Source of the DNA: Planctomycetota bacterium | GTDB taxonomy: Bacteria; Planctomycetota; SZUA-567; H5-PLA8 | Assembly (NCBI GenBank): GCA_035628505.1 | Contig: DASPJR010000088.1 | Span: 30,765-94,764, forward strand | Length of the DNA: 64,000 bases | Direction: 5' to 3' | Shown here: piece by piece, positions 22,401-37,100 of the stretch | How positions within the stretch are numbered: position 1 is the stretch's first letter | Layout: each line of letters opens with the position of its first letter | The notes under the pieces: generated by a model | What the model saw: the letters and a program-made list of their open reading frames with translations, nothing else | Told to the model about the DNA's origin: nothing | Databases searched by the model: none | Position numbers and translations under genes: made by a program

Positions 22401-23342
22401 GAAGGATATTCGGTCTACAACCTTCTGCTCCTCTCGCCTGGTCTCAAGATCGTAGTGGCAGGCCACGCATCCGATACTCAGATAAAGCTTTCTGCCGCGC
22501 CGGTGATCGCCTGCCGGGGTCACTGCTGCTTTCGCGCTATTTTCCGTCAGAAGAAAATCGGCAATCAACCGCCGTTCAATGGCGCCATCGCGATCAGGCT
22601 TGAACAAGCTCGGCATTCTTGCTGCAGGGTGCGCCTCTGCTGGATTATTTAAAAACGAAACGAGCCATTCGCGCGAAACACGCGCACCCAGGCCGCTCAG
22701 CGACGGACCGGGTGGCGCATCCTGTAGTGCAGGGAATGCGCCGGCGTGGCACTGTGCGCAGCCGAGTCGGCTCGCCGCGTTGCGCCCTTCCATCGCCAAG
22801 CTATCCAGCCGGACAGTTTCCGGAATTTCCTGCGGCACATGCTTGAACACCCACGCAGGAATTGGTTCGCGCGAAAAGGTTGCGCCCTGCCACCAGAGTT
22901 GCAGACGAGCCGGCACGTTCGCAAGCGAGCGGTAATCGATGCTGATCCGGTAGCGGCCGGCGCGGCGCACAAGAGACTGCTCCGAGCGGACCTGGGCTGA
23001 TTCGCTTTCACCGCGGCCTTTGAGAACCTCATCGCCGTCGATTTTGACGGTCAATTCGCCGCCGACGAAGGCATCAAATAAAAAAGGGGCATCCCCGCGA
23101 AGGACTATCACTCCTTCAAAGGACGCGCTGAATACGCCGGAAGGCAAGCGCGGGTGCGGGCTGGAGTTTCCAAACGAGAACGCCGGCTTCGGCTCGATCC
23201 GCGATACAGTGGCTCCCTCCGGAGATCGATATGTTGCGACGAGCCCAGGCGAAAGTGACTTCGGATTGATCGGCGCAGCATCGCCTGCGTTTGCAGCAGC
23301 AGTTGCAAGCATCGCCAGAATGAGTGTGCAGGTGAGACGCAT
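19413..23342 (-). CDS. Multi-heme c-type cytochrome / PVC-type dehydrogenase (1309 aa, five CxxCH motifs plus a beta-propeller)
   Basis: Signal peptide. CxxCH motifs GCAQCHAG, GCVACHYD, GCAACHAG, GCFRCHSV, CVSCHTW. C-terminal region resembles a sorbosone/glucose-dehydrogenase-like propeller. Confidence 0.7.
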   Translation of the reverse strand: MRLTCTLILAMLATAAANAGDAAPINPKSLSPGLVATYRSPEGATVSRIEPKPAFSFGNSSPHPRLPSGVFSASFEGVIVLRGDAPFLFDAFVGGELTVKIDGDEVLKGRGESESAQVRSEQSLVRRAGRYRISIDYRSLANVPARLQLWWQGATFSREPIPAWVFKHVPQEIPETVRLDSLAMEGRNAASRLGCAQCHAGAFPALQDAPPGPSLSGLGARVSREWLVSFLNNPAEAHPAARMPSLFKPDRDGAIERRLIADFLLTENSAKAAVTPAGDHRRGRKLYLSIGCVACHYDLETRREEQKVVDRISFDGLADRLPAAQLAEFLKNPIVRYPDGRHPQFALSAEAARDLAAYLLLWCKQQAAPATREAPVSDAELDAAVKRLGAPDKSGAAISLLRTKGCAACHAGLPQAEKQMIPLTPEKVAGCLSDSGSVRFKLDESTRKALVAYTSVSTRERHASPVEDRRLLIGRLGCFRCHSVDDRPPPLEEASASVGGAFLQTVPFLRTPRLNNALAKYTREYLSSALRQGVSGVRYKSYSFVMPHYGAHVESIIQALAEMDGDVVSPPSAAKKETDPTLTGPGASLVGFEGYSCVSCHTWNGAQLNEGDPGAVGPDLTTTTQRIRRDWFDRWMDEPARIVPGTVMPQIFTHGQPATIKSVLDGDVARQKEAIWAYLSLGKEAPSPKPLPAVPVDIPPAGAPPLVAQIPIRLPDKANVESICVAYGSHDLLVYDIGALKLRGAYSGAQILRNVRGRTRTFSLAGVALTEFTASSAIDALTSPPQAVELLGYERLADGARIKLLARYAEKSIEGSETFRVTARKLTHEIQWSGLPVKSVTHDLKNVASPPPTNYPQLPDPGPIGGSLERPGYRAIVYPRPKTVTGEDLLMPGAVAVHPIDGRVFVASMKNGELFVLRDQADDGKGAQFENYAGGLFQEVYAMLAEKDGLYVLHRRNVTRITETGGRATNFERVFALPHGIAETYDYGYGLVRDKTGALVISFAPYANRKLPGSGSAIRLIPGEKPEEIAFGFRNPLGWCNGPDSEIFYTDNQGEWVATNKLCHVVKGRYYGFPNPDQKEHATKPPGKTALWVPYAWGRSINGVTYNSGEKFGPFKGQFFLAELMYGGAIIRASLEKVNGEYQGACFPFWGKGLLGPLTLAFDPRGRLFVGSITEPGWMAQPDRGALFRIDFTGQTPFEIHSINVRPQGFRLNFTQAVDAKLAGLPESYAIEHYRYEYTGSYGSPELDRMPLSIEKIAVAADGRSVEIRTGALIRDRVYMIGAAGVKSATGDALVNPHAAYTLNEIPVP

Positions 23343-23512: not shown

Positions 23513-24007
23513 TCAGACTGAGATGAGTCTGAGAAGCCAATTAATAACCAGGGCGGCAAGCACCAGCGAGCCCGTGTAGACCTGCAGTCGTCTGGCCCAG
23601 TTCGCCTGCCGCGCGGCAGGGCGACGGTAGAGATAAAAGCGGAAGGGCACCTGTATGACGAAGAAGGCATACAGCAGCAATCCGACGCGGTTGCTTGAAA
23701 ATGAGTGCTCCAGCCGCCCATGCGTTAAGTGCACAAAAGCACGGGTCATCCCGCAGCCCGGGCATTCCGCGCCACACATTTTGCTGATGCACATCGGCGG
23801 CAGTTTATATCTGCCCAGAGATATTTCTTCAGAGTCCGCTTTGCCATTGAGCAGGAATGGCAGCGAGATCATGGCCAGGCTGATCAGAAAATACGTCAGG
23901 TGCGTGGCGCTATCCTGCGGCAAAGCTCTCTCGGGCGAGAAAGCTGCGCGCATCGACGCCGCCAGTCTCGAGATAACAGATGGTCTGCCGAGAGGTATCT
24001 GGTCCAT
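23513..24007 (-). CDS. DUF2752-family small membrane protein, last gene of the ubiquitin-like operon
   Basis: Signature CPGCGMTRAF followed by hydrophobic helices. The ORF-track start (24016) overlaps the E2 stop by 4 nt. An ATG lies 9 nt inside, at 24007. Confidence 0.55.
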   Translation of the reverse strand: MDQIPLGRPSVISRLAASMRAAFSPERALPQDSATHLTYFLISLAMISLPFLLNGKADSEEISLGRYKLPPMCISKMCGAECPGCGMTRAFVHLTHGRLEHSFSSNRVGLLLYAFFVIQVPFRFYLYRRPAARQANWARRLQVYTGSLVLAALVINWLLRLISV

Positions 24008-24012
24008 GCGAC

Positions 24013-24915
24013 TCACGAATTGACCATCACTGCGGGCGCGCAGCGTGTACAGAACATCTGCGAACCTGCGCCGGATTTCACTTTTTGAATGTGCTCAAGG
24101 CATGTGGATTTGCCGCACGCCTGGCACTCCACGATGCAGTCCATGCAGCGGCTGTGTTCGCAGATACTGCAGCGGGCCTGGTGGCGCATGCAGGTTGTCT
24201 GCTGACAGGAGGCGCACTTCATGGCGCATTTCTGACACGTGACTGCCTTGCAGCTCGCGCAGGTCAGCAGCGCGCATTTCAGACAGACGACGGCATCGCA
24301 GAGCTGGCAATGCAGCTTGCAGTTCTCGCAGCAGACGTGGCTGTTCAGACAGACACTCATGCTTTCAGTCGAGCCATTCTTGCCGCAATTGGCGCATGTG
24401 TCGCCAGCGAGCATCTTCCCATCGCTCGACCGGCCGACGGCCTCACCGACGGCAAGCATTGAACCGAAGTCGAACGTGTCCAGGGGCAGCGAGGCACTGT
24501 TCTCTTCGACCCACTTCGCCGCCTCGCCGTTCAATGGGCTCTTCACGTTGTAGGACTGATACGAGAGCATCTCGGCGATGCGTACGATCAGATTTGCCAG
24601 CGATTCGCCGGCCGCCCAGTGATCGCCGATGCAGATCGCATGCGGCGCAATGTTGGGATGAAACACCGGGGTCAGCATCCGGCACTGCGGCGCCAGGCGC
24701 GGGTACGCGGCAGTGAGGTTGATCTCCACAAGGAACGTGTTGCGAATATGGATCTGCCCATCCATTGCTTTTTCGAGCCCTTTGACGAGGTACTCGATCT
24801 GGTACTTTTCAGGCGGATCCCCAAGCGATTTCTTGATGTGTATGCGCGACTTCTGCGTAAACAGTGTGCACAGACGGTCGTAATCGGCCTTCAAGCGGCG
24901 CAGCCTGACGCTCAT
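24013..24915 (-). CDS. Ubiquitin-conjugating enzyme E2 (UBC fold) with a cysteine-rich C-terminal tail
   Basis: N-terminal helix RLRRLKADYDRL. Core YPRLAPQCRMLTPVFHPNIAPHAICIGDHW...SPLNGEAAKW aligns to the eukaryotic E2 HPN-x(5-6)-ICL-x2-W...SPLN pattern, with a catalytic Cys. The C-terminal ~115 aa contain ~27 Cys in periodic C-x2-C / C-x4-C spacing. Its start overlaps the upstream protease stop (ATGA). Confidence 0.8.
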   Translation of the reverse strand: MSVRLRRLKADYDRLCTLFTQKSRIHIKKSLGDPPEKYQIEYLVKGLEKAMDGQIHIRNTFLVEINLTAAYPRLAPQCRMLTPVFHPNIAPHAICIGDHWAAGESLANLIVRIAEMLSYQSYNVKSPLNGEAAKWVEENSASLPLDTFDFGSMLAVGEAVGRSSDGKMLAGDTCANCGKNGSTESMSVCLNSHVCCENCKLHCQLCDAVVCLKCALLTCASCKAVTCQKCAMKCASCQQTTCMRHQARCSICEHSRCMDCIVECQACGKSTCLEHIQKVKSGAGSQMFCTRCAPAVMVNS

Positions 24916-26222
24916 TTTTCGAGCCCCTCGATCGTGTTCGGCATGAAGTACTTTTCCCGCTCAGCGGGGCTGAGCAGCTTTACGAAGCTCGGCGTAGAGA
25001 TGGCGAAGTTGATGCCTTCTGTCGTGGACTTGTCATGTGTCCAGGTGTTTACGCCGACCAGCATTCCGTCGGAAGCGTACAGACCGCCGCCGCTGTTGCC
25101 CTGGTTAATCGGCGTCTGCGTCTGATAAATTTCCATGGACTGATTGCCGAGCTTACTCGTGCGTACGCCGGAGATAATGCCTTCCGTATAGGACCACGAC
25201 AGTGAAACGGGATTGCCTATCGCAAAGACTTTTTCTCCCGGCGACAGCACGCGCGGCGAGATCTGGATGGGCTTGTATTTGTCCAGCGTGAGCGCCTGGC
25301 AGCCCACGATCGCCAGGTCGACTGCCTCATCCCCTGACCATTCAACCACGCCACTGCTTTCCTCGCCGTTATAGAAGACAATGCGAAGATCGCTGTTGTC
25401 CTTCTTGTCTCCGGCTACGTGCTTGTTTGTCAGAATGTAACACTTGCGATCCTGGCTCTTCAATATCACCCCGGATCCGAAACGCATGCCTTCAAGCACG
25501 CCCGCGTTGTTCTTGATAATCACGTTCGCCCGCATGGCATTGGCAGCGGGTGCAGGCATGCTCTGCAATTGCTGCTCTGAAGGCAGGTTTTCATTCAGCC
25601 GCATATCGGCAGTCTGCTGGCTGGCCGTGTGTTTATGGGCGTAGGCAAGGTAAGCGAAATAGAAAATGAGCAGCAGTCCCGGCGCGCCGATGGATGAAAT
25701 TGCCAGCGGCATTCCACTGCGTCTGTTTTCTGGCGTCGTGATAATAACGAGTGCGATCACGCCCAGCACGGTGGCCGCCAGGCACAGCATGATTCCAAGA
25801 ATCACCAGCTTCTGGTGCCCTGCTACTGCTCCCAGCAACCCAATGGCGCTGAGGCCCGCAACAATCGCTCCGGCGACAGCCAACCGGCTCGTGCTGACAG
25901 GGCCCTTGGGCATGAATGAGGCCGCCACATCCTGCGGCGCCTGCCGGGCCGGGCGCACGGGCACTGTAATATTCGCCAGTTCGTCTTCACGAATGACGAT
26001 GTCCGGCTGGGCGTTGCCGGCGGTCGTGCGCACGGCCGTGTCACAGTGATACGACGCGCAGCCCTGCTTGCGGGCCCAGCAGGTGTCGTGATGAATCGCC
26101 CCGCAGTCGTTGCAGAAGCAGACCATCTGGCCAACGTCCACGGGGGCCTGGCAATACGGGCACGTGTTGCCGGAGTGAAACGTATTGGCGACAATCGGCC
26201 GTGATGGTGCGGAGGTCTTCAT
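24912..26222 (-). CDS. C4HC3 zinc finger + transmembrane segment + trypsin-like (S1, HtrA-like) serine protease fusion
   Basis: N-terminal CPYCQAPVDVGQMVCFCNDCGAIHHDTCWARKQGCASYHC. Two hydrophobic helices. A catalytic-domain-like region follows: ILTNKHVAG...DLAIV...GNSGGGLY (Ser nucleophile context GNSGG). Probable start at the internal ATG 26222. The ORF track extends to a GTG at 26297 that overlaps the upstream gene. Confidence 0.65.
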   Translation of the reverse strand: MKTSAPSRPIVANTFHSGNTCPYCQAPVDVGQMVCFCNDCGAIHHDTCWARKQGCASYHCDTAVRTTAGNAQPDIVIREDELANITVPVRPARQAPQDVAASFMPKGPVSTSRLAVAGAIVAGLSAIGLLGAVAGHQKLVILGIMLCLAATVLGVIALVIITTPENRRSGMPLAISSIGAPGLLLIFYFAYLAYAHKHTASQQTADMRLNENLPSEQQLQSMPAPAANAMRANVIIKNNAGVLEGMRFGSGVILKSQDRKCYILTNKHVAGDKKDNSDLRIVFYNGEESSGVVEWSGDEAVDLAIVGCQALTLDKYKPIQISPRVLSPGEKVFAIGNPVSLSWSYTEGIISGVRTSKLGNQSMEIYQTQTPINQGNSGGGLYASDGMLVGVNTWTHDKSTTEGINFAISTPSFVKLLSPAEREKYFMPNTIEGLEK

Positions 26223-26230
26223 CGAGGCTC

Positions 26231-26842
26231 TCAATCGAAGAGAATCATCAAACCCATCAGGAGCAGCAGAAAACCGCTGATCCCGACAGAACACCACACC
26301 AGAGCTTTGAGTGTGGACGGCAGGCGGCGATAGTCAATACCCATGAATTCCTTCTGGTAGATAAGGACTCCGTTGAGTACCAGTGCCAGAGGTGACAGAC
26401 ACGCAGCTGCCGACAGAAGGAACAGGCCGACAACTTTGTTTCGCGCCGCGTTGTACTCTTTGCCCTCATATTCCCGCGTGAGGTACTCTTCTTTGCTCAC
26501 CACATCGCGTGTTTCAAATGACGCGCCGCAGAAGCGGCACTTGAGCGCCTGCCCCTTGATTGTTTTGCCGCATGCCGGGCAGGGCTTCTCGCCAGCCCAT
26601 GCATTGGTGACGGGCAAGCCCTCTGCATGTTTTGTTGTTTTAGGCGTGCATTCACAGCCATAGGCCGAGCAGCCGCCGTTTTCTTTCCAGCACTCCGTAT
26701 GAAATGGAAGGTTGCACGCCGGGCAGTAAACAATGCGTTCGCCGGCAATCACGCCGGTCTGGCAGATCGAACACAGCTTTCCTGCCGTGCTCGTGCCGGC
26801 CTCAAACTCCTTGGGCAAAGCAGCGGGTTCGGGAGCAGACAT
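26231..26842 (-). CDS. Membrane-anchored C4HC3 (RING/PHD-like) zinc-finger protein with an extra C-terminal zinc ribbon
   Basis: CSICQTGVIAGERIVYCPACNLPFHTECWKENGGCSAYGC, then CPACGKTIKGQALKCRFCG, then two C-terminal TM helices. ATG at 26842 (GGGGAGA upstream) lies 7 nt after the upstream gene's stop. Confidence 0.6.
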   Translation of the reverse strand: MSAPEPAALPKEFEAGTSTAGKLCSICQTGVIAGERIVYCPACNLPFHTECWKENGGCSAYGCECTPKTTKHAEGLPVTNAWAGEKPCPACGKTIKGQALKCRFCGASFETRDVVSKEEYLTREYEGKEYNAARNKVVGLFLLSAAACLSPLALVLNGVLIYQKEFMGIDYRRLPSTLKALVWCSVGISGFLLLLMGLMILFD

Positions 26843-26849
26843 GGCTGTT

Positions 26850-27578
26850 CTATCTCCCCTCGGCCGCAAGACGGATCAATGTAAAGACTGCCTGTGAAAC
26901 CAGGGAGATCAGCAGCAGCTTGCCGCCCTTCTTCTTTCCCTGCACCATCCAAACAATCGCCATGATGCAAGCAATGCCGCCGCACAGAATGCCGAAGGCG
27001 ATTTCCGCACCGGTGAGATTCTCATCATCATCAGCCCCCGCCTGGAGCTTTTTCTGCCTTTCGCGATCCACCGGATCCTGGTACTCGCCGCAAAAGCGGC
27101 ACACGCGCGCTTTTTTCTGAATCTGCTCGCCGCACGAGACACATTCTTTTGTGTCTCCAGCAGGAGCCGAAACGACCGTTCCAATGGCTGCGGCGGACGC
27201 CAACTTTGGCTGCGACGGGCAAGCTGGATGCCCGCAGGCACCTGCTTTCTCACGGCAGGCCTGATGCATGGTGCTGCCGCAGCTCTGACAGTTGCAGACG
27301 TCATCGCCCAGTTCGATTGCAACCGAACAGGACGGACAGGTGCGGCCAAGCAGAGCCTTGTTCGCCTTCATGCGTTCAGGGAAAAAGGGCGGGCCGGGCG
27401 GCGGAGGCAGAGACGGCGCGCCATGAGACGGCGTCAGCGCAAGCGGGTCGGCCGTCAACGGCGGTGCGGCTGCAGCAACGGGCTTGGGAAGTTCCGCTCC
27501 ACAGTACATGCAGGAATTGCTTGTGTTGACTGCAACATTCCTGTCGCAGCTCGTGCACCGGACCGTTTCCCTGTTCAT
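26850..27578 (-). CDS. Membrane-anchored C4HC3 (RING/PHD-like) zinc-finger protein with flanking zinc ribbons
   Basis: CTSCDRNVAVNTSNSCMYCG (ribbon), then CPSCSVAIELGDDVCNCQSCGSTMHQACREKAGACGHPAC (C4HC3), then CVSCGEQIQKKARVCRFCG (ribbon), then a C-terminal TM segment. ATG at 27578. Confidence 0.6.
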   Translation of the reverse strand: MNRETVRCTSCDRNVAVNTSNSCMYCGAELPKPVAAAAPPLTADPLALTPSHGAPSLPPPPGPPFFPERMKANKALLGRTCPSCSVAIELGDDVCNCQSCGSTMHQACREKAGACGHPACPSQPKLASAAAIGTVVSAPAGDTKECVSCGEQIQKKARVCRFCGEYQDPVDRERQKKLQAGADDDENLTGAEIAFGILCGGIACIMAIVWMVQGKKKGGKLLLISLVSQAVFTLIRLAAEGR

Positions 27579-27610
27579 TTCCCCTCTCCCCTGCCCCGCA
27601 TTCAAACGTC

Positions 27611-28690
27611 TCAGGCGCCCTTTGTCTTTTCCGAATATTTCAACACGGCTTCGCCGAGTGAAATGACATCGTTGGATTGAAGCACGTACTTGTCGATGGC
27701 CTTGCCGTTCACGAAAGTTCCCTTGCCGCTGCCTTCATCGGTCAGGATGTATTTGCTGCCGGATTTCATGACGGTGGCGTGCAGCGGCGCAATGTCCGGG
27801 TCCTTGAAAAGGTAAATGTCGGACTTGGGAGACGAACCGATCAGCATCGGATTTTTGAAGACAATGAATTGTTTTCCCGTCAGCGGGCCTTTCAGCATGA
27901 GAAACCAGGCTTCCTTGGACAGGTTTTCGAAGAGCCCGATGAAGATGCCAACGAAGAGTGACACCGCAAAGATGCCCACGAATCTGCTCACGGAACCATC
28001 CGAGGCCTGTCCGAGCACAAAGCGGCTGATGGGATCAAAAAACAAACCGCCGATCAGTCCGCCAATCATTCCCCCGACAAAACCATTCAGCACAAGCTTT
28101 TTGGATTTCAGCGCAATCCCCAGCCCCATCCCCGCGCCCATGCTGACGACCGACCACGCGATAGCCCGCCCGCTCATGAAGATGACGAACGACATGCCTT
28201 TTAACGGAAACTCGCCCGGCGCAGGCGGCGCCTGATTGCGCATGAAAGCCACCGCAATCATGGACGTGATTCCGAAGAGAATATCCGCCACGATGGTGGT
28301 CAGCAGGGTGACGACCAGTCCGACGCCCATTCCCACCGCGCCGCAATAGAGCACCTGTTTCCAGTTGCGATTCATCAATCCGTAAACGGTGCCAATAGAA
28401 AGGCCGAGCGCAGCAGCAACCGGCCCGAAGAGGAGATAATCGGAGACGAAGGGAATCCCGCGCGAATGGCCGTGGTCGCCTTCCCTGTTATACGGTTCAG
28501 TGATTGCCCATACCGTCACGCCGCCGATGACCGAAGCCACTGAGTAATAGAAGATCGGGTTGTAGTAAAACGGCGTCTTAACGTCGGCAGTCTGCTGAGC
28601 GGCCTGGGGCTGCACGGAGCGATGCAGCGCCAGCACATCGTCGATGGCCGGGTCGCGCAGATCGTCTTCCGAAATCATGATGTCGGGCAT
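27611..28690 (-). CDS. Polytopic membrane protein with a C-terminal FHA domain
   Basis: At least six hydrophobic helices, followed by GKQFIVFKNPMLIGSSPKSDIYLFKDPDIAPLHATVMKSGSKYILTDEGSGKGTFVNGKAI...LQSNDVISLG. This is the classic FHA pattern (GR/SxxD..L.D..VS..HA.I...Y.L.D.GS.NGTFVNG). ATG with a GGAGAGGAGA RBS. Confidence 0.7.
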   Translation of the reverse strand: MPDIMISEDDLRDPAIDDVLALHRSVQPQAAQQTADVKTPFYYNPIFYYSVASVIGGVTVWAITEPYNREGDHGHSRGIPFVSDYLLFGPVAAALGLSIGTVYGLMNRNWKQVLYCGAVGMGVGLVVTLLTTIVADILFGITSMIAVAFMRNQAPPAPGEFPLKGMSFVIFMSGRAIAWSVVSMGAGMGLGIALKSKKLVLNGFVGGMIGGLIGGLFFDPISRFVLGQASDGSVSRFVGIFAVSLFVGIFIGLFENLSKEAWFLMLKGPLTGKQFIVFKNPMLIGSSPKSDIYLFKDPDIAPLHATVMKSGSKYILTDEGSGKGTFVNGKAIDKYVLQSNDVISLGEAVLKYSEKTKGA

Positions 28691-28716: not shown

Positions 28717-30021
28717 TTATTTCTTGCTGGGAATCGCGCTGCCGCTTGCGGCGGGCGCGGCCTTTTGTTCCTTGCCATACAGAATTTCCAGCGCCCGCGG
28801 CATCTCCTGTTCGAGGATGGGCTTTATGCCAGGGGAAATACGGAGTGCATTTTCAAGAATCCGGCGTGCTGTTTCCTTTTCCAAGTCGCCAAATTTGGAC
28901 GGATCGGCTTCGTACGGCTTGATGATTTCGCTGGCGCGCTGAACGTACAACATCGCCACAGCCGCGCTCAGTTCATCCTGGTGACGTGACGTAGCAGCGA
29001 CGCGCTGGCTGAGGTTCTGCCGCGAATTCATCATCTGCTCGATGTCGTCGCGGAACTTCGTTCGAGATTTGTTGTAGTGCTGCTCCAGCTTCGCCAACTG
29101 ATCCGTAAGTGCTTTAAGCTCGGTTTGTGCGGCGGCGTCACCAGCCTTGACCTTCTCTCCGATGGTCTGCATTTTTTCACGAATTTCCGCGAAGTCGCGC
29201 GAAGCAAGCGCATTAAGCGCGCTGAATTCGACAATGGAATAGATCTCGCTTTCGAGACTGGCCGTCACTTCTTTCCGGATATCCTGCACCGCCTGGTAAC
29301 GGCCCAGCATCAGCCCGCAACCGAGCGCCACCAGCATGAAAATAAGGGTGGTCAGAAAGCCGGGACCGCTTTCGCCGGAGGAATACTGCACGGGGGTGTC
29401 GTAAGTCGCCGCAGGCTGAGCCGAGCGCCCAGCGGAATTCATCGGCTTGGGACCGTCAACTTCAACAGGCTCGGCAATGCCTGTCGCAAGCTTGATCTGC
29501 CGGCTGCCAACCCAGTAGCGGGACAGGGGCACGCTCTTGCCTTCAATCCAGGCAAAGCAGCCTTCCTCATGCTTTTTCGTTTCAATGACGATTGCGACCT
29601 GGTACGGGAGATTGAAGAAGTTCTCCTGGATGAACATGTCCATTCCGGAAAGGAACACGCCGAACCCCGGATGCGTGTGGTACCAGCCGACGATGCGCTG
29701 TTTGGGATATTCCTTGTCTTTGATGCTGTTGATGTGGTCCCACGTCTGGTGCGTGAAGGTCACCTGCGCGCCGTAATTGTTCGAATGAAGCCCTTCGATG
29801 ACCGCGGTGATGCACAGAAAATAACCTTGCGAATCGCGGCACACGTCTCCGATCAGTACGCCGCACAGCTCGACTTCATTGGTCGTGTTCGCGTGGCTTT
29901 TCATCCGCTCATAGGCACGCTCGTCGATGTGCACGCGGTATTCCGAGGCAATCTGTGTCGGAAAGACCGCCTCTCGCGCATCCTTTTTTTCGATATTTGA
30001 ATAGTCCAGAGTCGCGGCCAT
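28717..30021 (-). CDS. JAB/MPN (JAMM) metalloprotease with a TM helix and a coiled-coil C-terminal extension
   Basis: Perfect JAMM motif: upstream Glu (NEVELCGVLIGD) and HTHPGFGVFLSGMD (H-x-H-x7-S-x2-D). TM helix GFLTTLIFMLVALGCGLMLG. C-terminal ~200 aa are helical and charged. Confidence 0.8.
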   Translation of the reverse strand: MAATLDYSNIEKKDAREAVFPTQIASEYRVHIDERAYERMKSHANTTNEVELCGVLIGDVCRDSQGYFLCITAVIEGLHSNNYGAQVTFTHQTWDHINSIKDKEYPKQRIVGWYHTHPGFGVFLSGMDMFIQENFFNLPYQVAIVIETKKHEEGCFAWIEGKSVPLSRYWVGSRQIKLATGIAEPVEVDGPKPMNSAGRSAQPAATYDTPVQYSSGESGPGFLTTLIFMLVALGCGLMLGRYQAVQDIRKEVTASLESEIYSIVEFSALNALASRDFAEIREKMQTIGEKVKAGDAAAQTELKALTDQLAKLEQHYNKSRTKFRDDIEQMMNSRQNLSQRVAATSRHQDELSAAVAMLYVQRASEIIKPYEADPSKFGDLEKETARRILENALRISPGIKPILEQEMPRALEILYGKEQKAAPAASGSAIPSKK

Positions 30022-30052: not shown

Positions 30053-31264
30053 TCACACGCGAATTTCTTTTCCTACATCACTCTCACGCCACGCTTCACC
30101 CAGCACCGCTTGCGCATCGCCGGAAAACAGATACGAAATGGAACGTTCTCCCTTGCGCGCGGTCACCACGTCAAAGCGCGGCGTTCCGATTTGCTCAAAA
30201 GTCATGTTGTCGATCGGAGCCGGCTCAAGTCCGAGCGTGTGTGTCAGTTCCGGAGCACGCATCTGCCCGCACTGCGGACATTTTCCTTCCGCTTCGGTCG
30301 TCTTCCCCAGTGAACGGAAAACGGGTTCGCTGGTCCCGCAGGCGGGGCAGTTGAGCGCCGTGAGAATATCCCGGCCGAGCTGCAGAACGGTGCCTTCGCC
30401 GAGCTCCGCGCGTGCGATCTTCAGAAGATCGGAGACTCTCATGTCGGCCACGCCAGCCTTCAGCCGCCGGAGATCCTGGTGCGGCTCATGGGCTGCACAA
30501 TCCGGCTTTCGCGTGTAAGCGACGGTGTACGATTCGGCGCTCAGGCCGTGATAAACGAACCCCTTGCCGCTGAGCGTCTCCATTCCATGCAGCAGCTTGA
30601 TAGCTTCCTGCATCTGCACCGCGGAGATAATGCTCGCGGTTGTCGGTGTCGTCGGGACTTTGCCTTCGTTCAGCTGGGTGCGTGTGAGCAGCGCGCAGGA
30701 GCGGCGGTTCTCAAGCATCTTCCAGTCTGTTGCGTTCATCGTACATTCGTAACAGGGGCCCGGCCCCGGCGCGAAAACGCGCGCCACGCCATCAAGCACC
30801 TCAATCGCGCCATCGATCCAGGGTTTTCCCGCAAACAGAGCAGCGCTGTTGATCGCCACGCGAGCCTCCCGATTGTCGAGGCCGCCGAGAATTACATCGG
30901 CCCAGAAATACACTCCGAGCCCAAGGTCATGAACAACGTTGCCGATGAATGGTTGCGCCCTGATCTGCGGATAAAGCTCCCGCGCCGAGCGGCAGGCGAT
31001 CTCGGCTTTGTATTTTCCATTGTCCGATTCACGGAAGAGCGGCGAGCGCGTGAGGTTTGAGTTTTCGATGCGGTCCATATCCGCGACCACGAGGTTGCCA
31101 ATACCGAGCAGCGCGCAATTCTTGACAATCTCATTGCCCAGCGCGCCGGCGCCGATAACAAGCACCCGCGCGTTCCGCAGACGGTTCTGGTCCCACCAGG
31201 AGATGAGCTCAAAGCGGCTGAAGCGGTGCTCTGGAACGGCCTCGCGAATGTTCAGGACGCTCAT
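30053..31264 (-). CDS. E1-like ubiquitin-activating enzyme (ThiF/MoeB/HesA family) with a C-terminal Cys4 extension
   Basis: Rossmann nucleotide-binding motif RVLVIGAGALGNEIVKNCALLGIGNLVVADMDRIENSNLTR. MoeB-like PGPGPCYECT motif. C-terminal CPACG...CPQCG zinc-binding pair plus an extra ~100-aa domain. Its ATG overlaps the Ubl stop (ATGA). Confidence 0.85.
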   Translation of the reverse strand: MSVLNIREAVPEHRFSRFELISWWDQNRLRNARVLVIGAGALGNEIVKNCALLGIGNLVVADMDRIENSNLTRSPLFRESDNGKYKAEIACRSARELYPQIRAQPFIGNVVHDLGLGVYFWADVILGGLDNREARVAINSAALFAGKPWIDGAIEVLDGVARVFAPGPGPCYECTMNATDWKMLENRRSCALLTRTQLNEGKVPTTPTTASIISAVQMQEAIKLLHGMETLSGKGFVYHGLSAESYTVAYTRKPDCAAHEPHQDLRRLKAGVADMRVSDLLKIARAELGEGTVLQLGRDILTALNCPACGTSEPVFRSLGKTTEAEGKCPQCGQMRAPELTHTLGLEPAPIDNMTFEQIGTPRFDVVTARKGERSISYLFSGDAQAVLGEAWRESDVGKEIRV

Positions 31265-31575
31265 GCGCAGCCTCGGCCGGCTTCGTGGACAGCGCGTCCG
31301 CCAGCCGTGATCTCCGGCTGAAGTCGAAGCACATCGCCATCTTTTACGCTGGCGCTCTGCAGCGTTTCTTCATCGAGCAGCTGGCGGCCGCTGGCCTTGT
31401 GGTGGAATTTGTAGCTCATGAGCTGCCCATCGGGACTGTGCCGCGGCAGGTTCATGCGTTCGACAAGCAGCACAATGATGCGGTTCACCGGCGCCGCGCG
31501 CGGCAGATTGACTGTCACCTTCTTGTTGCCGGTGGCATCCCAGACTTCAACATTCATGCCAGCTTCATCTGCCAT
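31261..31575 (-). CDS. Ubiquitin-like beta-grasp protein with a Gly-Gly followed by an 11-residue C-terminal tail (pro-Ubl)
   Basis: Start ATG 31575 with AAGGAG 10 nt upstream. Sequence MADEAGMNVEVWDATGNKKVTVNLPRAAPVNRIIVLLVERMNLP...GQLMSYKFHHKASGRQLLDEETLQSASVKDGDVLRLQPEITAGG|RAVHEAGRGCA parallels the secondary-structure order of ubiquitin. Its C-terminal half mirrors [29 protein letters not shown]. Its stop overlaps the E1 start. Confidence 0.75.
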   Translation of the reverse strand: MADEAGMNVEVWDATGNKKVTVNLPRAAPVNRIIVLLVERMNLPRHSPDGQLMSYKFHHKASGRQLLDEETLQSASVKDGDVLRLQPEITAGGRAVHEAGRGCA

Positions 31576-31613
31576 CTCTGGTGCACTCCTTCTGGTAAGC
31601 GTGTTCAAGGACG

Positions 31614-32684
31614 TTAAAGAGTCTTTATTGCATCAATGGGCCCGGCGAGTTCGCTTTCGGCGACGTACCAGCGGCCTTCTCCCCGAATCAATATTTTTCG
31701 AAATGCGCGCTTTTCGGTCCTGCGAATGACAAGGTAGACAATGGCGAAAATCAACGGGCTGATCACAAAAACAACGATCCAGGAAGGATAGCTCGTAAAG
31801 GTGATGTTTGCCTCGACCATGGCGACGCCACCGTGTTCGCTGATTGACTTCACTGAAGTGAGCTCGGCACTGCGGGCATGGCTGCTCGGACCCGTGAACA
31901 CCGATTTCCAGTACGCCTTGAAAGATTCGACATCCTTTATGTGAAACTGTCCGGCTTGAGATGGGATTTTCGGGTCGTTGAAAGTAAGGCTCGGCACCGG
32001 ACCAATGTTCCGTGCCGACGGAGCCAGACACGCGAACGCGCGCTCCGCGCGGTTGGTCGCAACGGCCGTATAGAAGCCCTTGAAGGCATGATGCGCTGTT
32101 AATGCGCCCGCAATCTTGTGCGTGATACTGTCGTTGTACCAGGACACACACACCGGAATCACAAAGATCAGGGTGCCGAGGATTCCGAATACGCCGAACG
32201 GAGCGCCATTGTCGCCTTTCAGCACGATGCCCGATACGATCGACATCAATGACAGTCCGAGCAGGCCCATGAGGACCTTGGTCTTTGTGGAAAGCAACGC
32301 ACCGGTCAACTCTGCATCGGCTGCCACTGCTTCCGGATTTGCGCTGTATTTTTGAACCTCAGCAACGCGCGCCTCAAGCAGCTGCCGCTGCTGCTCGGCG
32401 TTCAATTCACCTGCGATGGATTGCCGGCAAAGCGGACAGATCGCCGAACCGGCAGGGATCTGTTCGGCACACGCAGGACACTCGGTCATCTGTTGAGCGG
32501 TGACAGGCGGCGAAGAAATCGCGGGCGAATCTCGCAAGACAGCAGGTCCAGGCGAACCTTTGTCATCAGTGGTGCTCGGTGCCGTTAACTCTGCCCCGCA
32601 GACGGCACAGAGAACCAGACCACCGGCATTGAGATCATGTACGCGAAACGTTTTTCCACACTGGCATGAGACAGTAATTGGCAT
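31614..32684 (-). CDS. Zinc-ribbon membrane protein (first gene of the operon)
   Basis: N-terminal CQCGKTFRV...CAVCG and CPACAEQIPAGSAICPLCRQ ribbons, then four or five TM helices, then a C-terminal ~130-aa domain of unknown function. It lies 38 nt upstream of the Ubl gene on the same strand. Confidence 0.5.
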   Translation of the reverse strand: MPITVSCQCGKTFRVHDLNAGGLVLCAVCGAELTAPSTTDDKGSPGPAVLRDSPAISSPPVTAQQMTECPACAEQIPAGSAICPLCRQSIAGELNAEQQRQLLEARVAEVQKYSANPEAVAADAELTGALLSTKTKVLMGLLGLSLMSIVSGIVLKGDNGAPFGVFGILGTLIFVIPVCVSWYNDSITHKIAGALTAHHAFKGFYTAVATNRAERAFACLAPSARNIGPVPSLTFNDPKIPSQAGQFHIKDVESFKAYWKSVFTGPSSHARSAELTSVKSISEHGGVAMVEANITFTSYPSWIVVFVISPLIFAIVYLVIRRTEKRAFRKILIRGEGRWYVAESELAGPIDAIKTL

Positions 32685-34131: not shown

Positions 34132-37100
34132 TTACCGCTTGCCGTCTTTCGCCTGGCCGGCATTCGGCGTTGCATCGTACGATTCGGTCTGGATGGTCTG
34201 GTAAATCGCGTTGTTGAAGTAGATGCGTACTGGAAGCATCAGCGTCTTGTCTTTCACCGGCGTGTTGGTCAGTCCGTACGGCTGCAGTGTTGAGACCAGG
34301 TCTGCCTTCTTCAGTGAGATGCGGAACTTAATCGAGCGTGCCTTCTCGCCGCGCGTACGCATCGACAGATAGTCTGTGCTTGTCAGAACGCGGCCCTTCG
34401 GATTCAACGTAAAGCTTCTCGTGACGCCTGCCACATCCATGATGCAGGTCTGCGTTCCCAACGTGAAGCCATCGGGCACGCCGAAAGTTCCGCTAAGTGT
34501 CAGCTTGTCATTGCTCGTGCGCACAAAATTAAGCTTGATGAGCAGCTTCGCATCGAGGAGCAGTTGCGGCGGCGGAGCCGTGGTGCCGAATGGCGTTTCC
34601 GAAGCATTCGTGGACGACGATCCCGCGACCACTTCGACCGAGTCCGGGAAGCCATCGTTGTCGCTGTCCACCTGGACAGGGAACGGCAGCGCACCGCCTC
34701 CGCCGCTGGCCACCACCAGCATCGTCAGCGTCGCGCTCGTTGAGAGTTTCGCGCCGTTAGTGATGACCACGGTCACCTTGTACGTACCGAGCGATGTGTA
34801 GGTGTGCGTCGGGCCCGGCAGCGTGCTCGTCGAGCCGTCACCAAAATCCCACGCGTAGGTCAAACTCGAGGGCACCTGGTCGGTTGCGCCCAGCGCGAAC
34901 GATACTGGCGCGCCAGGAGTGGCCGGATTGGGTGTCGCCGCAGGCTGGGAAACAACGACCGGCGCGACGGCTGTCACGTTCAGTGCGACAACACTGCTAA
35001 CTGTCTTGAAGTTCACGGTATCGTTCGGCGTGAACGTTGCTGTCAGCGGCTGGCCGTTACCGGTTCCAAGAATGGTGCCGCTGGCGGGCGAGTACTCGAA
35101 CGTTCCCGGCACATCCGCGGTCGCATTTAGTTGCAGACCGCTTAAAGCCGTGCCCGTCTGTATATCCGCCGGAGTAGCCCACGTGATGACTGGCGCTGCT
35201 TTCTGCACGTTAATCAGCACCGTTGCAGTGATTGTGCTCGGCTGAATCGTGGAATCGGCTGCAGTGAACGATACAAGCAGCGTCTGATTGGCGCCGGCAT
35301 TCAGCACCGTTCCGATGGCAGGCGTGTAGGTGAATGTGCCAGGCGTGTTGGCGCTCGCGTTCAATTCAGCGGCACTTAGCGCAGTGCGGTACAGGATATC
35401 AGCCGGATTGTTCCACGTAATCACCGGCGTGGCGTGCACCGTCAGTGTAAAGAGCTGCATGTCATCGACCGGCACACCATTGCTCGCCGTAAAGATAAGC
35501 GTATACGTCCCGGACGTTCCCGACGCGGGCGTTCCGGAGAGTTCGCCTGTGAGAGCGTTGAACGTCATGCCTGCCGGAAGGGCGCCGCTCAGGCTTAGTG
35601 CCGGCTGCGGAGAACCCGTTCGGACAACCGTGAAGTTGCCGGCACTTCCGATCGTGAAGGCCACATTGTTGCCGCTGGTAATCGCCGGCGCCTGGTTCAC
35701 GGTCAACGTGAACGCCTGGGTGGCGACAACTCCTACTCCGTTGCTGGCGCTGAAGGTCAAATTGTAAACCGCCGCCGTCCCGGCTGCGGGCGTGCCGCTG
35801 AGAACGCCGGTCGCGCTGTTGAACGACAGCCCGGACGGAAGCGTGCCGGAGAGGCTTAACACCGGAGCCGGCGAACCATCCGCTGTGACGCTGAAGCTTC
35901 CGGCAGCGCCGACCGTAAACGCTGCGTTGTCGACACTCGTAATTCCAGCCGGCCGGTAAACCGACAGCATAAAATTCTGAATCGAGTCCGGTCCGATTCC
36001 GTTACTGGACGTGAACACGATCGGGTAATCCCCGCCGGTGCCCGCCGCGGGAGTTCCCGACAGCAGTCCCGTCGCCGGATTGAACGTAACGCCTGTGGGC
36101 AGCGCGCCGCTCTGTGAGAGCGTCGGTGCTGGTTCGCCGAGCGAAGTGACACCGAAGCTGCCGGCGGCACCTTCGGTGAAGATCGTGCTGGCCGCGCTGG
36201 TGATCGAGGCCGGTTGATTGACGATCAGGCTGAAGTTCTGAATTGCTGCCGATCCCACTCCGTTGTCAGCGTTGAGCGTGAGATTGTACGTGCCTCCCGT
36301 TCCTGTCGCTGGATTGCCGCTCAGCACGCCGGTGGCCGCATTGAAGCTTACGCCCGTCGGCAGCGTGCCGGTCAGTGTGAGTGCTGGAGCCGGCGATCCG
36401 CTGGCAGTCATCGTGAAGCTGTTTGAACTGCCTACCGTGAAAGTCGTGGTGTTGGCGCTGGTGATCGCGGGGACCTGGTTGACCGTTAACGTAAAGTTCT
36501 GAACATGCGGCGTGGCAACGCCGTTCTGCGCCGTGAACGTCAGCGGATACGTTCCAGCCGTGCCCGCCGCAGGCGTTCCGCTCAGCACGCCTGTAGATGC
36601 ATCGAAGGATACGCCATTGGGCAACGTGCCGGAGAGGCTCAGAAGAGCGGCGGGGTAACCGCTGCGCGTCACGCTGAAGCTGCCGGCCGATCCGACCGTG
36701 AATGTCGTATTGTCGGCGCTGGTCACCGCCGGCGCCTGTTCGACCGTCAGCACGAAATTCACCACAGAATCCGAACCGACGCCGTTCGCTGCCGTGATCG
36801 TGAAGTTGTACACGCCGCCTGTTCCGGCTGCCGGCGTGCCGCTCAGGGTGCTGCCAACAAAGGTGACGCCTGTGGGCAGCGGACCTGTCAGTGTGAACGT
36901 CGGCGCCGGCACGCCAGTCGCGGTGACCACGAAATTGCCCGCAGTCCCCACCCGGAAGGTTGTCGCCGTACCGCTCGTGATATTCGGAGCCTTGTTGATA
37001 ACCAGGGTGAAATTCTGCACGGCATTGACGCCGACGCCGTTGGCTGCAGTGAACGCGATATCGTAGCTGCCGGAGGTTCCCGCCGCTGGAACGCCGCTGA

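What the first reader, a model, noticed from the sequence alone, without database searches (positions are those of the whole stretch)
31261..31575. Ubiquitin-like protein made as a precursor: Gly-Gly followed by an 11-residue tail, with its stop codon embedded in the E1 start
Translation from the SD-supported ATG at 31575 gives a 104-aa protein ending ...LRLQPEITAGG-RAVHEAGRGCA. A diglycine that is not C-terminal implies proteolytic maturation before adenylation by E1. This is like pro-ubiquitin processing by Rpn11-type JAMM enzymes in Caldiarchaeum. The adjacent JAB gene is the obvious candidate processing enzyme. The UGA of the Ubl gene overlaps the AUG of the E1 gene (ATGA), suggesting stoichiometric co-translation.
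Basis: partly seen in the sequence, partly recalled or inferred. Interest (0 to 1): 0.7.

Follow-up and report, generated by a model that had tools for sequence, protein, structure and literature searches.

The report
Bacterial ubiquitin-like precursor ending Ala-Gly
This gene encodes a very highly conserved bacterial ubiquitin-like protein made with a disposable 12-residue tail after an invariant Ala-Gly (not Gly-Gly), and it sits in a complete but experimentally uncharacterised E1-E2-RING-JAB operon of Planctomycetota.

Summary
The ORF, its translation, its Shine-Dalgarno sequence and the ATGA overlap with the E1 gene are all as described. The "diglycine" is not the conserved feature. In 120 protein homologues and 80 genome loci the invariant C-terminal motif is QPEITAG, with a single Gly (G92). 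The next residue is A, G, R, S or a stop, and 15-18% of orthologues end exactly at ...TAG. The window's tail is therefore 12 residues (GRAVHEAGRGCA), and G93 is its first residue.

Tails range from 0 to about 50 unconserved residues. In some relatives they are whole fused proteins: Zn-ribbon/DUF4190, lipoprotein-like, E1 itself, or a Hint domain. This supports the precursor idea.

The gene heads a conserved operon: Ubl, E1, membrane-anchored JAB, FHA membrane protein, three membrane RING proteins (one fused to a trypsin-like protease), E2 and DUF2752. All catalytic motifs are intact.

The most likely mechanism is that the JAB peptidase trims after G92, and E1, E2 and RING then conjugate the Ubl. 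The tail DNA also carries the E1 ribosome-binding site.

The operon type was predicted computationally in 2011 and remains uncharacterised. This is a new member of a known kind, of moderate interest.

The parts
31300..31575 (-). Predicted mature ubiquitin-like protein, residues 1-92, ending ...LRLQPEITAG (G92 codon 31302..31300)
   Evidence: Translation. Pfam YukD 1.5e-10. Invariant Q86-G92 in 44 aligned homologues. PEITAG in 120/120 homologues and in 79/80 loci, the other being AEITAG. AF2 beta-grasp with pLDDT 78.9. Foldseek hits to SUMO, Ub, NEDD8 and Caldiarchaeum Ub.
31264..31299 (-). Dispensable C-terminal tail, residues 93-104 (GRAVHEAGRGCA). It is a translated Ubl-E1 spacer.
   Evidence: No conservation after G92. 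Orthologue tails are 0-51 aa and rich in R/A/G/S/P. pLDDT is about 50. 12/79 loci and 22/120 proteins have no tail.
31261..31264 (-). ATGA overlap: Ubl stop TGA (31263..31261) and E1 start ATG (31264..31262)
   Evidence: Sequence. The same 4-nt overlap occurs in 11 of the 50 orthologous loci with E1 within 150 nt of the Gly codon, and some overlap in 22 of those 50 (heuristic start calls).
31271..31274 (-). GAGG, the likely Shine-Dalgarno of E1, 6 nt before its ATG and inside tail codons R100-G101
   Evidence: Read directly. Its function is inferred.
31586..31590 (-). AGGAG, the Shine-Dalgarno of the Ubl gene, 10 nt before ATG 31575
   Evidence: The start position agrees with orthologue N-termini.
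30053..31264 (-). E1-like activating enzyme (403 aa)
   Evidence: Pfam ThiF 1.3e-49. Best solved relatives are the active adenylation domains of UBA7/UBA1 at 6.7e-25. GxGxxG, CYEC and RRSC (Cys190) are conserved in 74 orthologues.
28717..30021 (-). JAB/JAMM metallopeptidase (434 aa): N-terminal JAB domain, one TM helix (221-239), then a coiled-coil region. Candidate maturase and deconjugase.
   Evidence: Pfam JAB 1.6e-13. Rpn11 at 3e-9 and Caldiarchaeum Rpn11-like 6fjv at 1.5e-6. E...HxHx7Sx2D conserved in at least 90% of 71 orthologues. TM helix by hydropathy.
27611..28690 (-). Polytopic membrane protein with a C-terminal FHA domain
   Evidence: Pfam FHA 1.8e-14. Hydropathy. Conserved position in the operon.
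26850..27605 (-). RING protein 1 (Prok-RING_1, Zn ribbons, 2 C-terminal TM helices)
26231..26869 (-). RING protein 2 (Prok-RING_1 + Zn ribbon + TM). The likely start is the ATG at 26842.
   Evidence: tblastn paralogue hit. Pfam Prok-RING_1 2.1e-10. Translation.
24912..26297 (-). RING - 3 TM helices - trypsin-like serine protease
   Evidence: Pfam Trypsin_2 1.4e-20 and Prok-RING_1 2.8e-4, the latter below Pfam's cutoff. Motifs read as the His/Asp/Ser triad are conserved in 35 orthologues. 3 TM helices lie between the RING and the protease.
24013..24915 (-). E2 (UBC fold) with a Cys-rich C-terminal extension
   Evidence: Pfam UQ_con 8.9e-11. Aligned to UBE2A with HPN and the catalytic Cys. FHPNIAPHAIC is conserved in 40 orthologues.
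23513..24016 (-). DUF2752 membrane protein, probably the last gene of the operon
   Evidence: Pfam DUF2752 1.1e-14. Found downstream of E2 in 33 orthologous loci.
31614..32684 (-). Zn-ribbon membrane protein upstream of the Ubl. It may be the first gene of the operon in this subclade.
   Evidence: Weak Zn-ribbon Pfam hits. 3 hydrophobic segments. Present upstream of the Ubl in the closest loci only: L001-L003, L005-L009, L011, L015, L029.

Best explanation
The gene encodes the modifier of a complete bacterial ubiquitin-like conjugation system. It is translated as a 104-aa precursor. The folded beta-grasp body ends in the invariant ...QPEITA-G92. The 12 residues after G92 are an unconserved, disordered by-product of reading through the 35-nt Ubl-E1 spacer, which carries the E1 ribosome-binding site, up to the stop that overlaps the E1 start.

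Before use, the tail is cut off after G92, most likely by the operon's membrane-anchored JAB/JAMM metallopeptidase, which would also reverse conjugation. The free Gly92 carboxylate is then adenylated by E1, passed as a thioester to E1 Cys190 and then to the E2 Cys, and ligated to targets by the membrane-anchored RING proteins.

Shown here: the ORF, the invariant Ala-Gly, the tail variability, the operon conservation and the intact catalytic motifs. Inferred: cleavage, the cleaving enzyme, conjugation and the targets.
For: - C-terminal motif. Q86-G92 is invariant and nothing after it is conserved. PEITAG occurs in 120/120 close homologues, and 22 of them end exactly at G. 79/80 genome loci have PEITAG (one has AEITAG), and 12/79 have no tail. 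Distant representatives keep x-A-G at the same position.
- Tail length. In-frame tails are much shorter (median 5 codons) than the open runs in the other two frames from the same point (22 and 38 codons). Tail length is therefore constrained, but tail sequence is not.
- Natural fusions directly after AG. These include Zn-ribbon+DUF4190 (L019, L022, L044, L051, L065; P0128), double Zn-ribbon proteins, lipoprotein-like proteins, E1 (L042, P0121) and Hint domains (P0252, P0260). None of these could be activated without cleavage at G.
- Fold. The AF2 model is a beta-grasp with a low-confidence tail. Its top structural matches are the conjugated modifiers SUMO, Ub, NEDD8 and Caldiarchaeum ubiquitin.
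- Operon. The order Ubl-E1-JAB-FHA-RING-RING/trypsin-E2 is conserved across Planctomycetota, Verrucomicrobia, Hydrogenedentes, Riflebacteria and Victivallales.
- Catalytic motifs. The JAMM, E1, E2 (HPN-Cys) and protease motifs are conserved.
- JAB relatives. The closest solved relatives of the JAB are Rpn11/CSN5 and the Caldiarchaeum Rpn11-like enzyme. That enzyme cleaves a 9-residue propeptide from its pro-ubiquitin, and the cleavage is required for E1 activation (PMC5654768).
- Precedent for the idea. JAB release of Ubls at the last glycine was proposed for prokaryotes in PMC1779556.
- Ubl-E1 junction. The window's tail codons contain GAGG 6 nt before the E1 ATG. Ubl-stop/E1-start overlap recurs in 22/50 loci.
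Against: - No biochemical evidence exists for cleavage, activation or conjugation in this family. No experimental paper on it was found.
- Pfam files the Ubl under YukD. The founding member of that family is reported not to be conjugated (PMC1779556).
- An Ala-Gly terminus is unusual for ubiquitin-type E1/E2/RING cascades.
- The JAB has a TM helix, and its topology is only guessed.
- 15-18% of orthologues need no processing, so the JAB is retained for some other reason as well, presumably deconjugation.
- The E1 start codons used for the overlap statistics were chosen heuristically.
Confidence: 0.7

Rival explanations
1. One reading: in this organism the mature end is the diglycine ...TAG-G93, and the tail is 11 residues.
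For: The sequence does read AGG. About 17-24% of orthologues also have G after the invariant G. Canonical Ub, NEDD8 and Caldiarchaeum Ub end in GG (PMC5654768).
Against: Position 93 is unconserved, being A, R, S, G or others. 22/120 proteins and 12/79 loci stop right after G92. The E1 and the JAB are orthologous across these loci, so they should recognise the shared ...EITAG end.
Confidence: 0.07
2. The tail is removed, but not by the JAB. The enzyme would be the RING-trypsin protease of the operon or a housekeeping peptidase, and the JAB acts only as a deconjugase.
For: The operon encodes a second, apparently active peptidase with a conserved His/Asp/Ser triad. In Bub operons a non-JAB peptidase matures the Ubl (PMC11601596).
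Against: Three TM helices separate the RING from the protease domain. The protease is therefore predicted to lie on the opposite side of the membrane from the RING, E2 and Ubl (hydropathy only). JAB/JAMM enzymes are the proven maturases in the nearest characterised system (PMC5654768).
Confidence: 0.12
3. The Ubl is not conjugated at all. It acts non-covalently as an adaptor or assembly factor of a membrane complex, as YukD/EsaB does in type VIIb secretion, and the tail is irrelevant.
For: The Pfam assignment is YukD. YukD is reported not to form conjugates (PMC1779556). YukD has a structural role in T7SSb (title and abstract of PMC12637312). Most operon partners here are membrane proteins.
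Against: There are no T7SS genes in the operon. E1, E2, three RINGs and a JAB with intact active sites are strictly co-conserved with the Ubl. The Gly is invariant at the exact end of the fold, and many orthologues terminate there. The structure is nearest to conjugated modifiers.
Confidence: 0.05
4. The tail is a functional propeptide that keeps the modifier inactive until the JAB is switched on, rather than a neutral by-product of gene packing.
For: About 82-85% of orthologues carry some tail. In Caldiarchaeum the uncleaved form is refractory to E1 (PMC5654768). The operon carries signalling-type modules: FHA, and a membrane-anchored JAB.
Against: The tail shows no conservation of sequence or length (0 to about 50 aa). 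15-18% of orthologues have none. Tail composition is R/A/G/S/P-rich, as expected from translated G+C-rich spacer. In the window the tail coincides with the E1 ribosome-binding site and with the start overlap.
Confidence: 0.15

Closest known systems
Bacterial E1-E2-RING-JAB operons with YukD-like Ubls, predicted computationally by Burroughs, Iyer and Aravind (Mol Biosyst 2011, PMC5938088). The paper could not be read here and is cited from memory of its abstract, from citing papers (PMC3417536 and PMC4197634) and from the Pfam Prok-RING_1 family.
   Same: The component set is the same: YukD-family Ubl, ThiF-type E1, UBC-fold E2, Prok-RING_1 fingers with TM helices, and a JAB peptidase. The phyla match (Planctomycetes are named in PMC4197634). 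These operons are described there as uncharacterised.
   Different: Nothing essential differs, and the window's operon looks like a member. I could not verify that the following details are already published: the Ala-Gly end with variable tails and fusions, the FHA membrane protein, the RING-3TM-trypsin fusion, and DUF2752.
Caldiarchaeum subterraneum ubiquitin operon: pro-ubiquitin, E1, E2, small RING and an Rpn11-like JAMM (PMC5654768)
   Same: The modifier is encoded with a short C-terminal propeptide (9 aa there, 12 here). In the archaeal system a JAMM enzyme removes it, and this is required before E1 activation. Both are E1/E2/RING cascades. The window's Ubl model matches Caldiarchaeum Ub structures at 26-28% identity, and its JAB matches the Rpn11-like protein at 1.5e-6.
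   Different: The mature end is Ala-Gly here, not Gly-Gly. The Ubl belongs to the YukD sequence family. The JAB, the three RINGs and several partners are membrane-anchored. Extra FHA, trypsin-like and DUF2752 components are present. No biochemistry exists.
UFM1 and Atg8/LC3 pro-forms, which have a single exposed Gly after removal of a short tail by UfSP or Atg4 (own knowledge)
   Same: The modifier has one C-terminal Gly preceded by a non-Gly residue, and it is made with a short tail that a dedicated protease removes before E1 adenylation.
   Different: Those proteases are Cys proteases, and those pathways use non-canonical E2/E3 enzymes. Here the cascade is a canonical UBC E2 + RING, with a JAMM metalloprotease.
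YukD/EsaB of type VIIb secretion systems (PF08817)
   Same: Sequence-family assignment and the beta-grasp fold.
   Different: YukD is reported not to be conjugated (PMC1779556). The window's protein has an invariant terminal Gly and E1/E2/RING/JAB neighbours, and it has no T7SS neighbours.
Bil, Bub and type II CBASS (Cap2/Cap3) bacterial ubiquitination-like defence operons (PMC11601603, PMC11601596)
   Same: These are bacterial E1/E2/Ubl/peptidase operons. In them a peptidase exposes a C-terminal Gly (BubAB is cleaved after G229).
   Different: There are no RING E3s in those systems, and their E2s and Ubl architectures are different. PADLOC gives only generic E1 and JAB domain hits here, with no hit for the Ubl or the E2.

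Membership tests
Prokaryotic E1-E2-RING-JAB ubiquitin-like operons with a YukD-like Ubl | Small beta-grasp Ubl of the YukD sequence family | tested here: met
   Pfam PF08817 at 1.5e-10, 42.1 bits against a cutoff of 27. AF2 beta-grasp.
Prokaryotic E1-E2-RING-JAB ubiquitin-like operons with a YukD-like Ubl | Adjacent ThiF-type E1 with nucleotide-binding and Cys motifs | tested here: met
   ThiF 1.3e-49. UBA7/UBA1 6.7e-25. GxGxxG, CYEC and RRSC conserved.
Prokaryotic E1-E2-RING-JAB ubiquitin-like operons with a YukD-like Ubl | UBC-fold E2 with HPN motif and catalytic Cys | tested here: met
   UQ_con 8.9e-11. FHPNI...AIC aligned to UBE2A and conserved in 40 orthologues.
Prokaryotic E1-E2-RING-JAB ubiquitin-like operons with a YukD-like Ubl | Prok-RING finger protein(s) in the operon | tested here: met
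   Prok-RING_1 at 3e-8 and 2.1e-10. A third copy, fused to the trypsin-like domain, scores 2.8e-4, which is below Pfam's cutoff.
Prokaryotic E1-E2-RING-JAB ubiquitin-like operons with a YukD-like Ubl | JAB peptidase with an intact JAMM motif | tested here: met
   JAB 1.6e-13. E...HxHx7Sx2D aligned to Rpn11 and conserved in at least 90% of 71 orthologues.
Prokaryotic E1-E2-RING-JAB ubiquitin-like operons with a YukD-like Ubl | Conserved gene neighbourhood across distant bacteria | tested here: met
   The same gene order is found in nearly all of the 80 loci that have enough flank, from at least five phyla.
Ubiquitin-type modifiers made as C-terminally extended precursors (pro-Ub, pro-SUMO, pro-NEDD8, Caldiarchaeum pro-Ub) | C-terminal Gly-Gly at the end of the fold | tested here: not met
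   The conserved end is Ala91-Gly92. Position 93 is variable, and GG occurs in only 20/120 proteins and 19/79 loci.
Ubiquitin-type modifiers made as C-terminally extended precursors (pro-Ub, pro-SUMO, pro-NEDD8, Caldiarchaeum pro-Ub) | Variable, unconserved extension or fusion partner after the terminal Gly | tested here: met
   Tails of 0-51 aa, plus fusions to Zn-ribbon/DUF4190, E1, Hint and lipoprotein-like proteins.
Ubiquitin-type modifiers made as C-terminally extended precursors (pro-Ub, pro-SUMO, pro-NEDD8, Caldiarchaeum pro-Ub) | Cleavage after the terminal Gly by a dedicated protease, needed for E1 activation | not testable with these tools
   This needs enzyme assays or mass spectrometry. 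Only context supports it.
YukD/EsaB accessory proteins of type VIIb secretion | Neighbourhood of T7SS genes (EssC/YukB ATPase, EsxA/WXG100, EssB/YukC) | tested here: not met
   No such domains in the operon or its flanks.
YukD/EsaB accessory proteins of type VIIb secretion | No conjugation | not testable with these tools
   Conjugation was not assayed. The invariant terminal Gly, at which many orthologues terminate, argues for conjugation here.
Bil / Bub / CBASS type II defence ubiquitination-like systems | System-specific E1/E2 (or E2-E1 fusion), Ubl or CD-NTase substrate, recognised by defence-system models | tested here: not met
   PADLOC gives only generic E1 and JAB domain hits, with none for the Ubl, E2, FHA or RING1 proteins. 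RING E3s and a canonical UQ_con E2 are present.

The most novel reading that the evidence does not exclude
This Ubl family is a bacterial counterpart of ubiquitin in more than fold. It is the most conserved protein of its operon. It ends in Ala-Gly and is made from many kinds of precursor: junk tails, Zn-ribbon/DUF4190 proteins, lipoprotein-like proteins, E1, and even self-cleaving Hint domains that could create a Gly thioester without an E1. Its maturation and removal by a membrane-anchored JAMM enzyme serve a membrane-embedded, ERAD-like tagging machine (three TM RING E3s, an FHA sensor and a trans-membrane RING-protease) that is widespread in PVC-group bacteria.
Probability: 0.25. Interest if true: 0.75.

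Novelty: new member of a known kind. Interest (0 to 1): 0.5.

Why it matters
Complete E1-E2-RING-deubiquitinase systems outside eukaryotes have been reconstituted only from an uncultured archaeon (PMC5654768). The bacterial ones are still described as uncharacterised (PMC4197634).

This operon family occurs in at least 201 species-level genomes. These include cultured Planctomycetes: Lacipirellula limnantheis I41 (L053) and Aeoliella straminimaris (L067).

Knowing that the mature modifier ends at ...EITAG92, not at GG, tells an experimenter which construct the E1 should accept. It also tells them which lysine remnant to search for in proteomes (LQPEITAG, +809.43 Da after trypsin). The wrong (GG) construct would probably be inactive.

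The Ubl is far more conserved than its enzymes, and the machinery is membrane-embedded. Both features bear on how ubiquitin signalling evolved.

Tried and rejected
- Reading Burroughs et al. 2011 (DOI and PMC5938088) and Burroughs et al. 2012 (PMC5881585): not held in the library. What those papers already say about the C-terminus could therefore not be checked.
- Literature searches for experimental work on this system: only reviews and computational mentions were found.
- Profile search of the Ubl alignment against PDB sequences: no meaningful hit, and not even YukD. Only the fold comparison worked.
- PADLOC: generic E1 and JAB hits only, so the operon is not a recognised defence system.
- Promoter/terminator scan of the operon: 0 promoter-like sites and a background level of terminator-like sites, which is uninformative.
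- The RING-trypsin protease as the maturase: down-weighted because 3 TM helices separate it from the RING.
- A second Ubl copy in the window: none found.
- Predicting a Ubl-JAB or Ubl-E1 complex: not possible within the tool's input rules, because the two genes are in different frames and artificial fusions are not accepted.
Full report
**1. The observation**

On the minus strand, ATG 31575 opens a 104-codon ORF that ends at TGA 31263..31261. It translates as MADEAG...LRLQPEITAGGRAVHEAGRGCA. AGGAG lies at 31590-31586, 10 nt upstream of the ATG. The last codon and stop (GCA TGA) overlap the ATG of a 403-aa ORF, 31264..30053, as ATGA. No other start codon is available upstream in that frame, because the ORF listing starts an ORF at the first start after a stop.

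The same 104-aa sequence exists in public databases as 'EsaB/YukD family protein' of a Planctomycetota MAG (P0001). The gene is real. It has 2365 homologues at E<=1e-3 in the 90% clusters. It has 625 in the 50% representatives. Pfam YukD scores 1.5e-10. The literal observation therefore holds.

**2. The 'diglycine' does not hold**

All 120 best homologues contain PE[IVL]TAG. The residue after this Gly is A (31), stop (22), G (20), R (20), S (14) or another residue. Tail lengths run from 0 to 50. In a 44-sequence alignment Q86, P87, E88, I89, T90, A91 and G92 are invariant, and no column after G92 is conserved.

In 80 loci from species-representative genomes, 79 have PEITAG and one has AEITAG. 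Of the 79 loci that could be scored, 12 stop right after the Gly, and 19 of 79 have G next. More distant representatives keep x-A-G at the same aligned position: EVVAG, EMTAG, NVSAG, DVTAG, NVRAG.

The conserved end of the fold is therefore Ala91-Gly92. G93 is the first residue of a 12-residue tail (GRAVHEAGRGCA, codons 31299..31264). The second criterion (Gly position conserved, tail variable) is met, for G92.

**3. What the tail is**

Tails are rich in R, A, G, S and P, which is the composition expected from translating G+C-rich spacer. They are unconserved, and residues 91-104 have pLDDT of about 50 in the AF2 model. Their length is nonetheless constrained. The in-frame distance from the Gly codon to the first stop has a median of 5 codons, against 22 and 38 codons in the other two frames from the same point.

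In the window, the 35 nt between the G92 codon and the E1 ATG contain GAGG (31274-31271) 6 nt before that ATG. The tail codons therefore double as the E1 ribosome-binding site, and the first in-frame stop is the one that overlaps the E1 start.

In 50 loci E1 starts within 150 nt of the Gly codon. In these:
- the Ubl stop overlaps the E1 start in 22, of which 11 show exactly the 4-nt ATGA/GTGA type;
- the stop lies 0-20 nt upstream of the E1 start in 11 more (start codons were chosen heuristically).

Translational coupling of Ubl and E1 is thus a recurrent arrangement, though not a universal one. The tail is best read as its by-product. 'Stoichiometric' production is not shown.

**4. Fusions after the Gly**

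In five loci (L019, L022, L044, L051, L065) the reading frame continues after ...EITAG into a 130-144-aa Zn-ribbon + DUF4190 membrane module (P0128). In the cultured Lacipirellula limnantheis I41 (L053) the same module is a separate gene between the Ubl and E1.

Other relatives are fused directly after AG to:
- double Zn-ribbon proteins;
- lipoprotein-like proteins (signal peptide plus lipobox);
- E1 itself (L042, P0121);
- Hint domains that begin with the Cys right after the Gly (P0252: CHAT, two YukD-like domains and a PT-HINT; P0260).

None of these could present a free Gly carboxylate without cleavage. This is the strongest comparative argument that maturation at G92 is a general property of the family.

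**5. Fold**

The AF2 model (pLDDT 78.9) is a beta-grasp: strands 6-12 and 19-25, helix 30-40, strands 52-59 and 82-89. Foldseek against the PDB gives probability 1.00 matches to SUMO, ubiquitin, NEDD8 and Caldiarchaeum ubiquitin (6fno_D, 6fj7, 6fnn_C; 26-28% identity).

**6. The operon**

Downstream, on the same strand, the genes are:
- E1: ThiF 1.3e-49; best solved relatives are the active adenylation domains of UBA7/UBA1.
- JAB protein: JAB 1.6e-13; Rpn11 3e-9; Caldiarchaeum Rpn11-like 6fjv 1.5e-6; E...HTHPGFGVFLSGMD aligned to the Rpn11 JAMM motif. It has one TM helix and a coiled-coil region.
- A polytopic FHA protein.
- Two Prok-RING_1 membrane proteins. The second, 26869..26231, was found only by paralogue search.
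- A RING - 3 TM - trypsin-like protease.
- A UBC-fold E2 with HPN and the catalytic Cys.
- A DUF2752 membrane protein.

This order is conserved in nearly every locus with enough flank, in Planctomycetota, Verrucomicrobia, Hydrogenedentes, Riflebacteria and Victivallales MAGs. Across 35-74 orthologues the JAMM motif, the E1 GxGxxG / CYEC / RRSC(Cys190) motifs, the E2 FHPNIAPHAIC motif and the protease triad motifs are at least 90% conserved.

The Ubl is the best-conserved protein of the operon. Identity to the window is 65-89% for the Ubl, against 49-76% for E1, 40-65% for E2 and 27-54% for the JAB.

**7. Mechanism**

The most likely sequence of events is as follows:
1. The precursor is translated, coupled to E1.
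2. The JAB domain cuts after G92.
3. E1 adenylates G92 and forms a thioester.
4. E2 takes over the thioester.
5. Membrane RING proteins ligate the Ubl to targets at or in the membrane.
6. The JAB reverses the modification.

The cut by the JAB is inferred from three things:
- its strict co-occurrence with the Ubl;
- its intact active site;
- the Caldiarchaeum precedent, where an Rpn11-like JAMM removes a 9-residue propeptide and uncleaved pro-ubiquitin is refractory to E1 (PMC5654768).

The earlier proposal that prokaryotic JABs release Ubls at the last glycine is in PMC1779556.

The operon's other peptidase is a weaker candidate. Three TM helices separate it from its RING, which places it on the other side of the membrane (hydropathy only). 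The targets and the biological role are unknown.

**8. Comparison with what is known**

The component set matches the bacterial E1-E2-RING-JAB operons with YukD-like Ubls that Burroughs, Iyer and Aravind predicted in 2011. I could not read that paper and cite it from memory of its abstract. Citing papers describe such operons in Planctomycetes as uncharacterised (PMC4197634; PMC3417536).

The system works like the Caldiarchaeum system, but the Ubl has an Ala-Gly end and belongs to a different sequence family, and the machinery is membrane-anchored. A single-Gly end with a short removable tail also recalls UFM1 and Atg8 (own knowledge). The gene is not a T7SS YukD, because there are no T7SS neighbours and the terminal Gly is invariant. 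It is also not a Bil, Bub or CBASS system.

**9. Verdict**

This is a new member of a computationally known but experimentally untouched kind. Interest is moderate (0.5). The corrected mature end (1-92, ...EITAG) and the existence of cultured carriers (L053, L067) make the system directly testable.

Noticed in passing
P0252 (1052 aa) and P0260 (508 aa), relatives found: YukD-like Ubl domains are followed directly (…AG|C…) by a Hint/PT-HINT autoprocessing domain. P0252 also has an N-terminal CHAT protease domain. A Hint domain at this junction could cleave itself off, and in principle it could generate a Gly thioester without an E1.
   Followed up: partly
L019, L022, L044, L051, L065 (about 10258-10700); L053 10278-10736; P0128, P0134: The Ubl is fused in frame after ...EITAG to a Zn-ribbon + DUF4190 membrane module. 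In Lacipirellula limnantheis I41 (L053) the same module is a separate gene between the Ubl and E1. L046 carries a truncated version.
   Followed up: partly
L042 10001-11527; P0121, P0167: The Ubl reading frame runs on into the whole E1, giving an in-frame Ubl-E1 fusion. This could be real or an assembly frameshift, and it was not resolved.
   Followed up: no
P0196, P0201, P0208, P0209, P0212; P0193, P0195, P0197, P0203, P0207, P0211, P0261: More distant Ubl relatives are fused after AG to lipoprotein-like proteins (hydrophobic signal plus an LSGC-type lipobox) or to double Zn-ribbon proteins. The latter recalls the eukaryotic fusions of ubiquitin to Zn-ribbon ribosomal proteins.
   Followed up: partly
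window 26231-26869 (-): A third Prok-RING_1 membrane protein lies between RING1 and the RING-trypsin gene. The operon therefore encodes three RING proteins.
   Followed up: yes
window 24912-26297 (-): RING finger, three TM helices, then a trypsin-like serine protease with a conserved triad. This is an E3 physically coupled to a protease that is probably on the other face of the membrane.
   Followed up: partly
window 24013-24915 (-), residues about 150-300: The E2 carries a roughly 150-residue C-terminal extension packed with CxxC motifs, which are Zn-ribbon-like. Only a few of these Cys are conserved in orthologues.
   Followed up: no
80 related loci: The Ubl is much more conserved than its enzymes: 65-89% identity, against 27-76% for E1, E2, JAB, FHA and the RINGs. 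K18 and K56 are invariant and K60 is nearly invariant. This pattern recalls ubiquitin itself.
   Followed up: partly
L049 7628-7888; L052 10001-10261: Two 'orphan' Ubl genes have no E1, E2 or JAB within the fetched flanks. Both end exactly at ...EITAG with no tail. Their neighbours are DUF1559/N-methyl (type IV pilin-like) proteins and unknowns.
   Followed up: partly
window 23513-24016 (-): A DUF2752 membrane protein gene starts directly after the E2 stop codon. It is conserved downstream of E2 in 33 loci and is probably part of the operon.
   Followed up: yes
window 34132-46479 (-): A giant 4115-aa ORF lies upstream of the operon region. It was not analysed.
   Followed up: no
window 19413-23342 (-) and 16509-18685 (-): A 1309-aa protein has several cytochrome c domains and a GSDH-like domain. 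It is followed by PAS and hybrid histidine kinase/response-regulator genes. There is no evident link to the Ubl operon.
   Followed up: no
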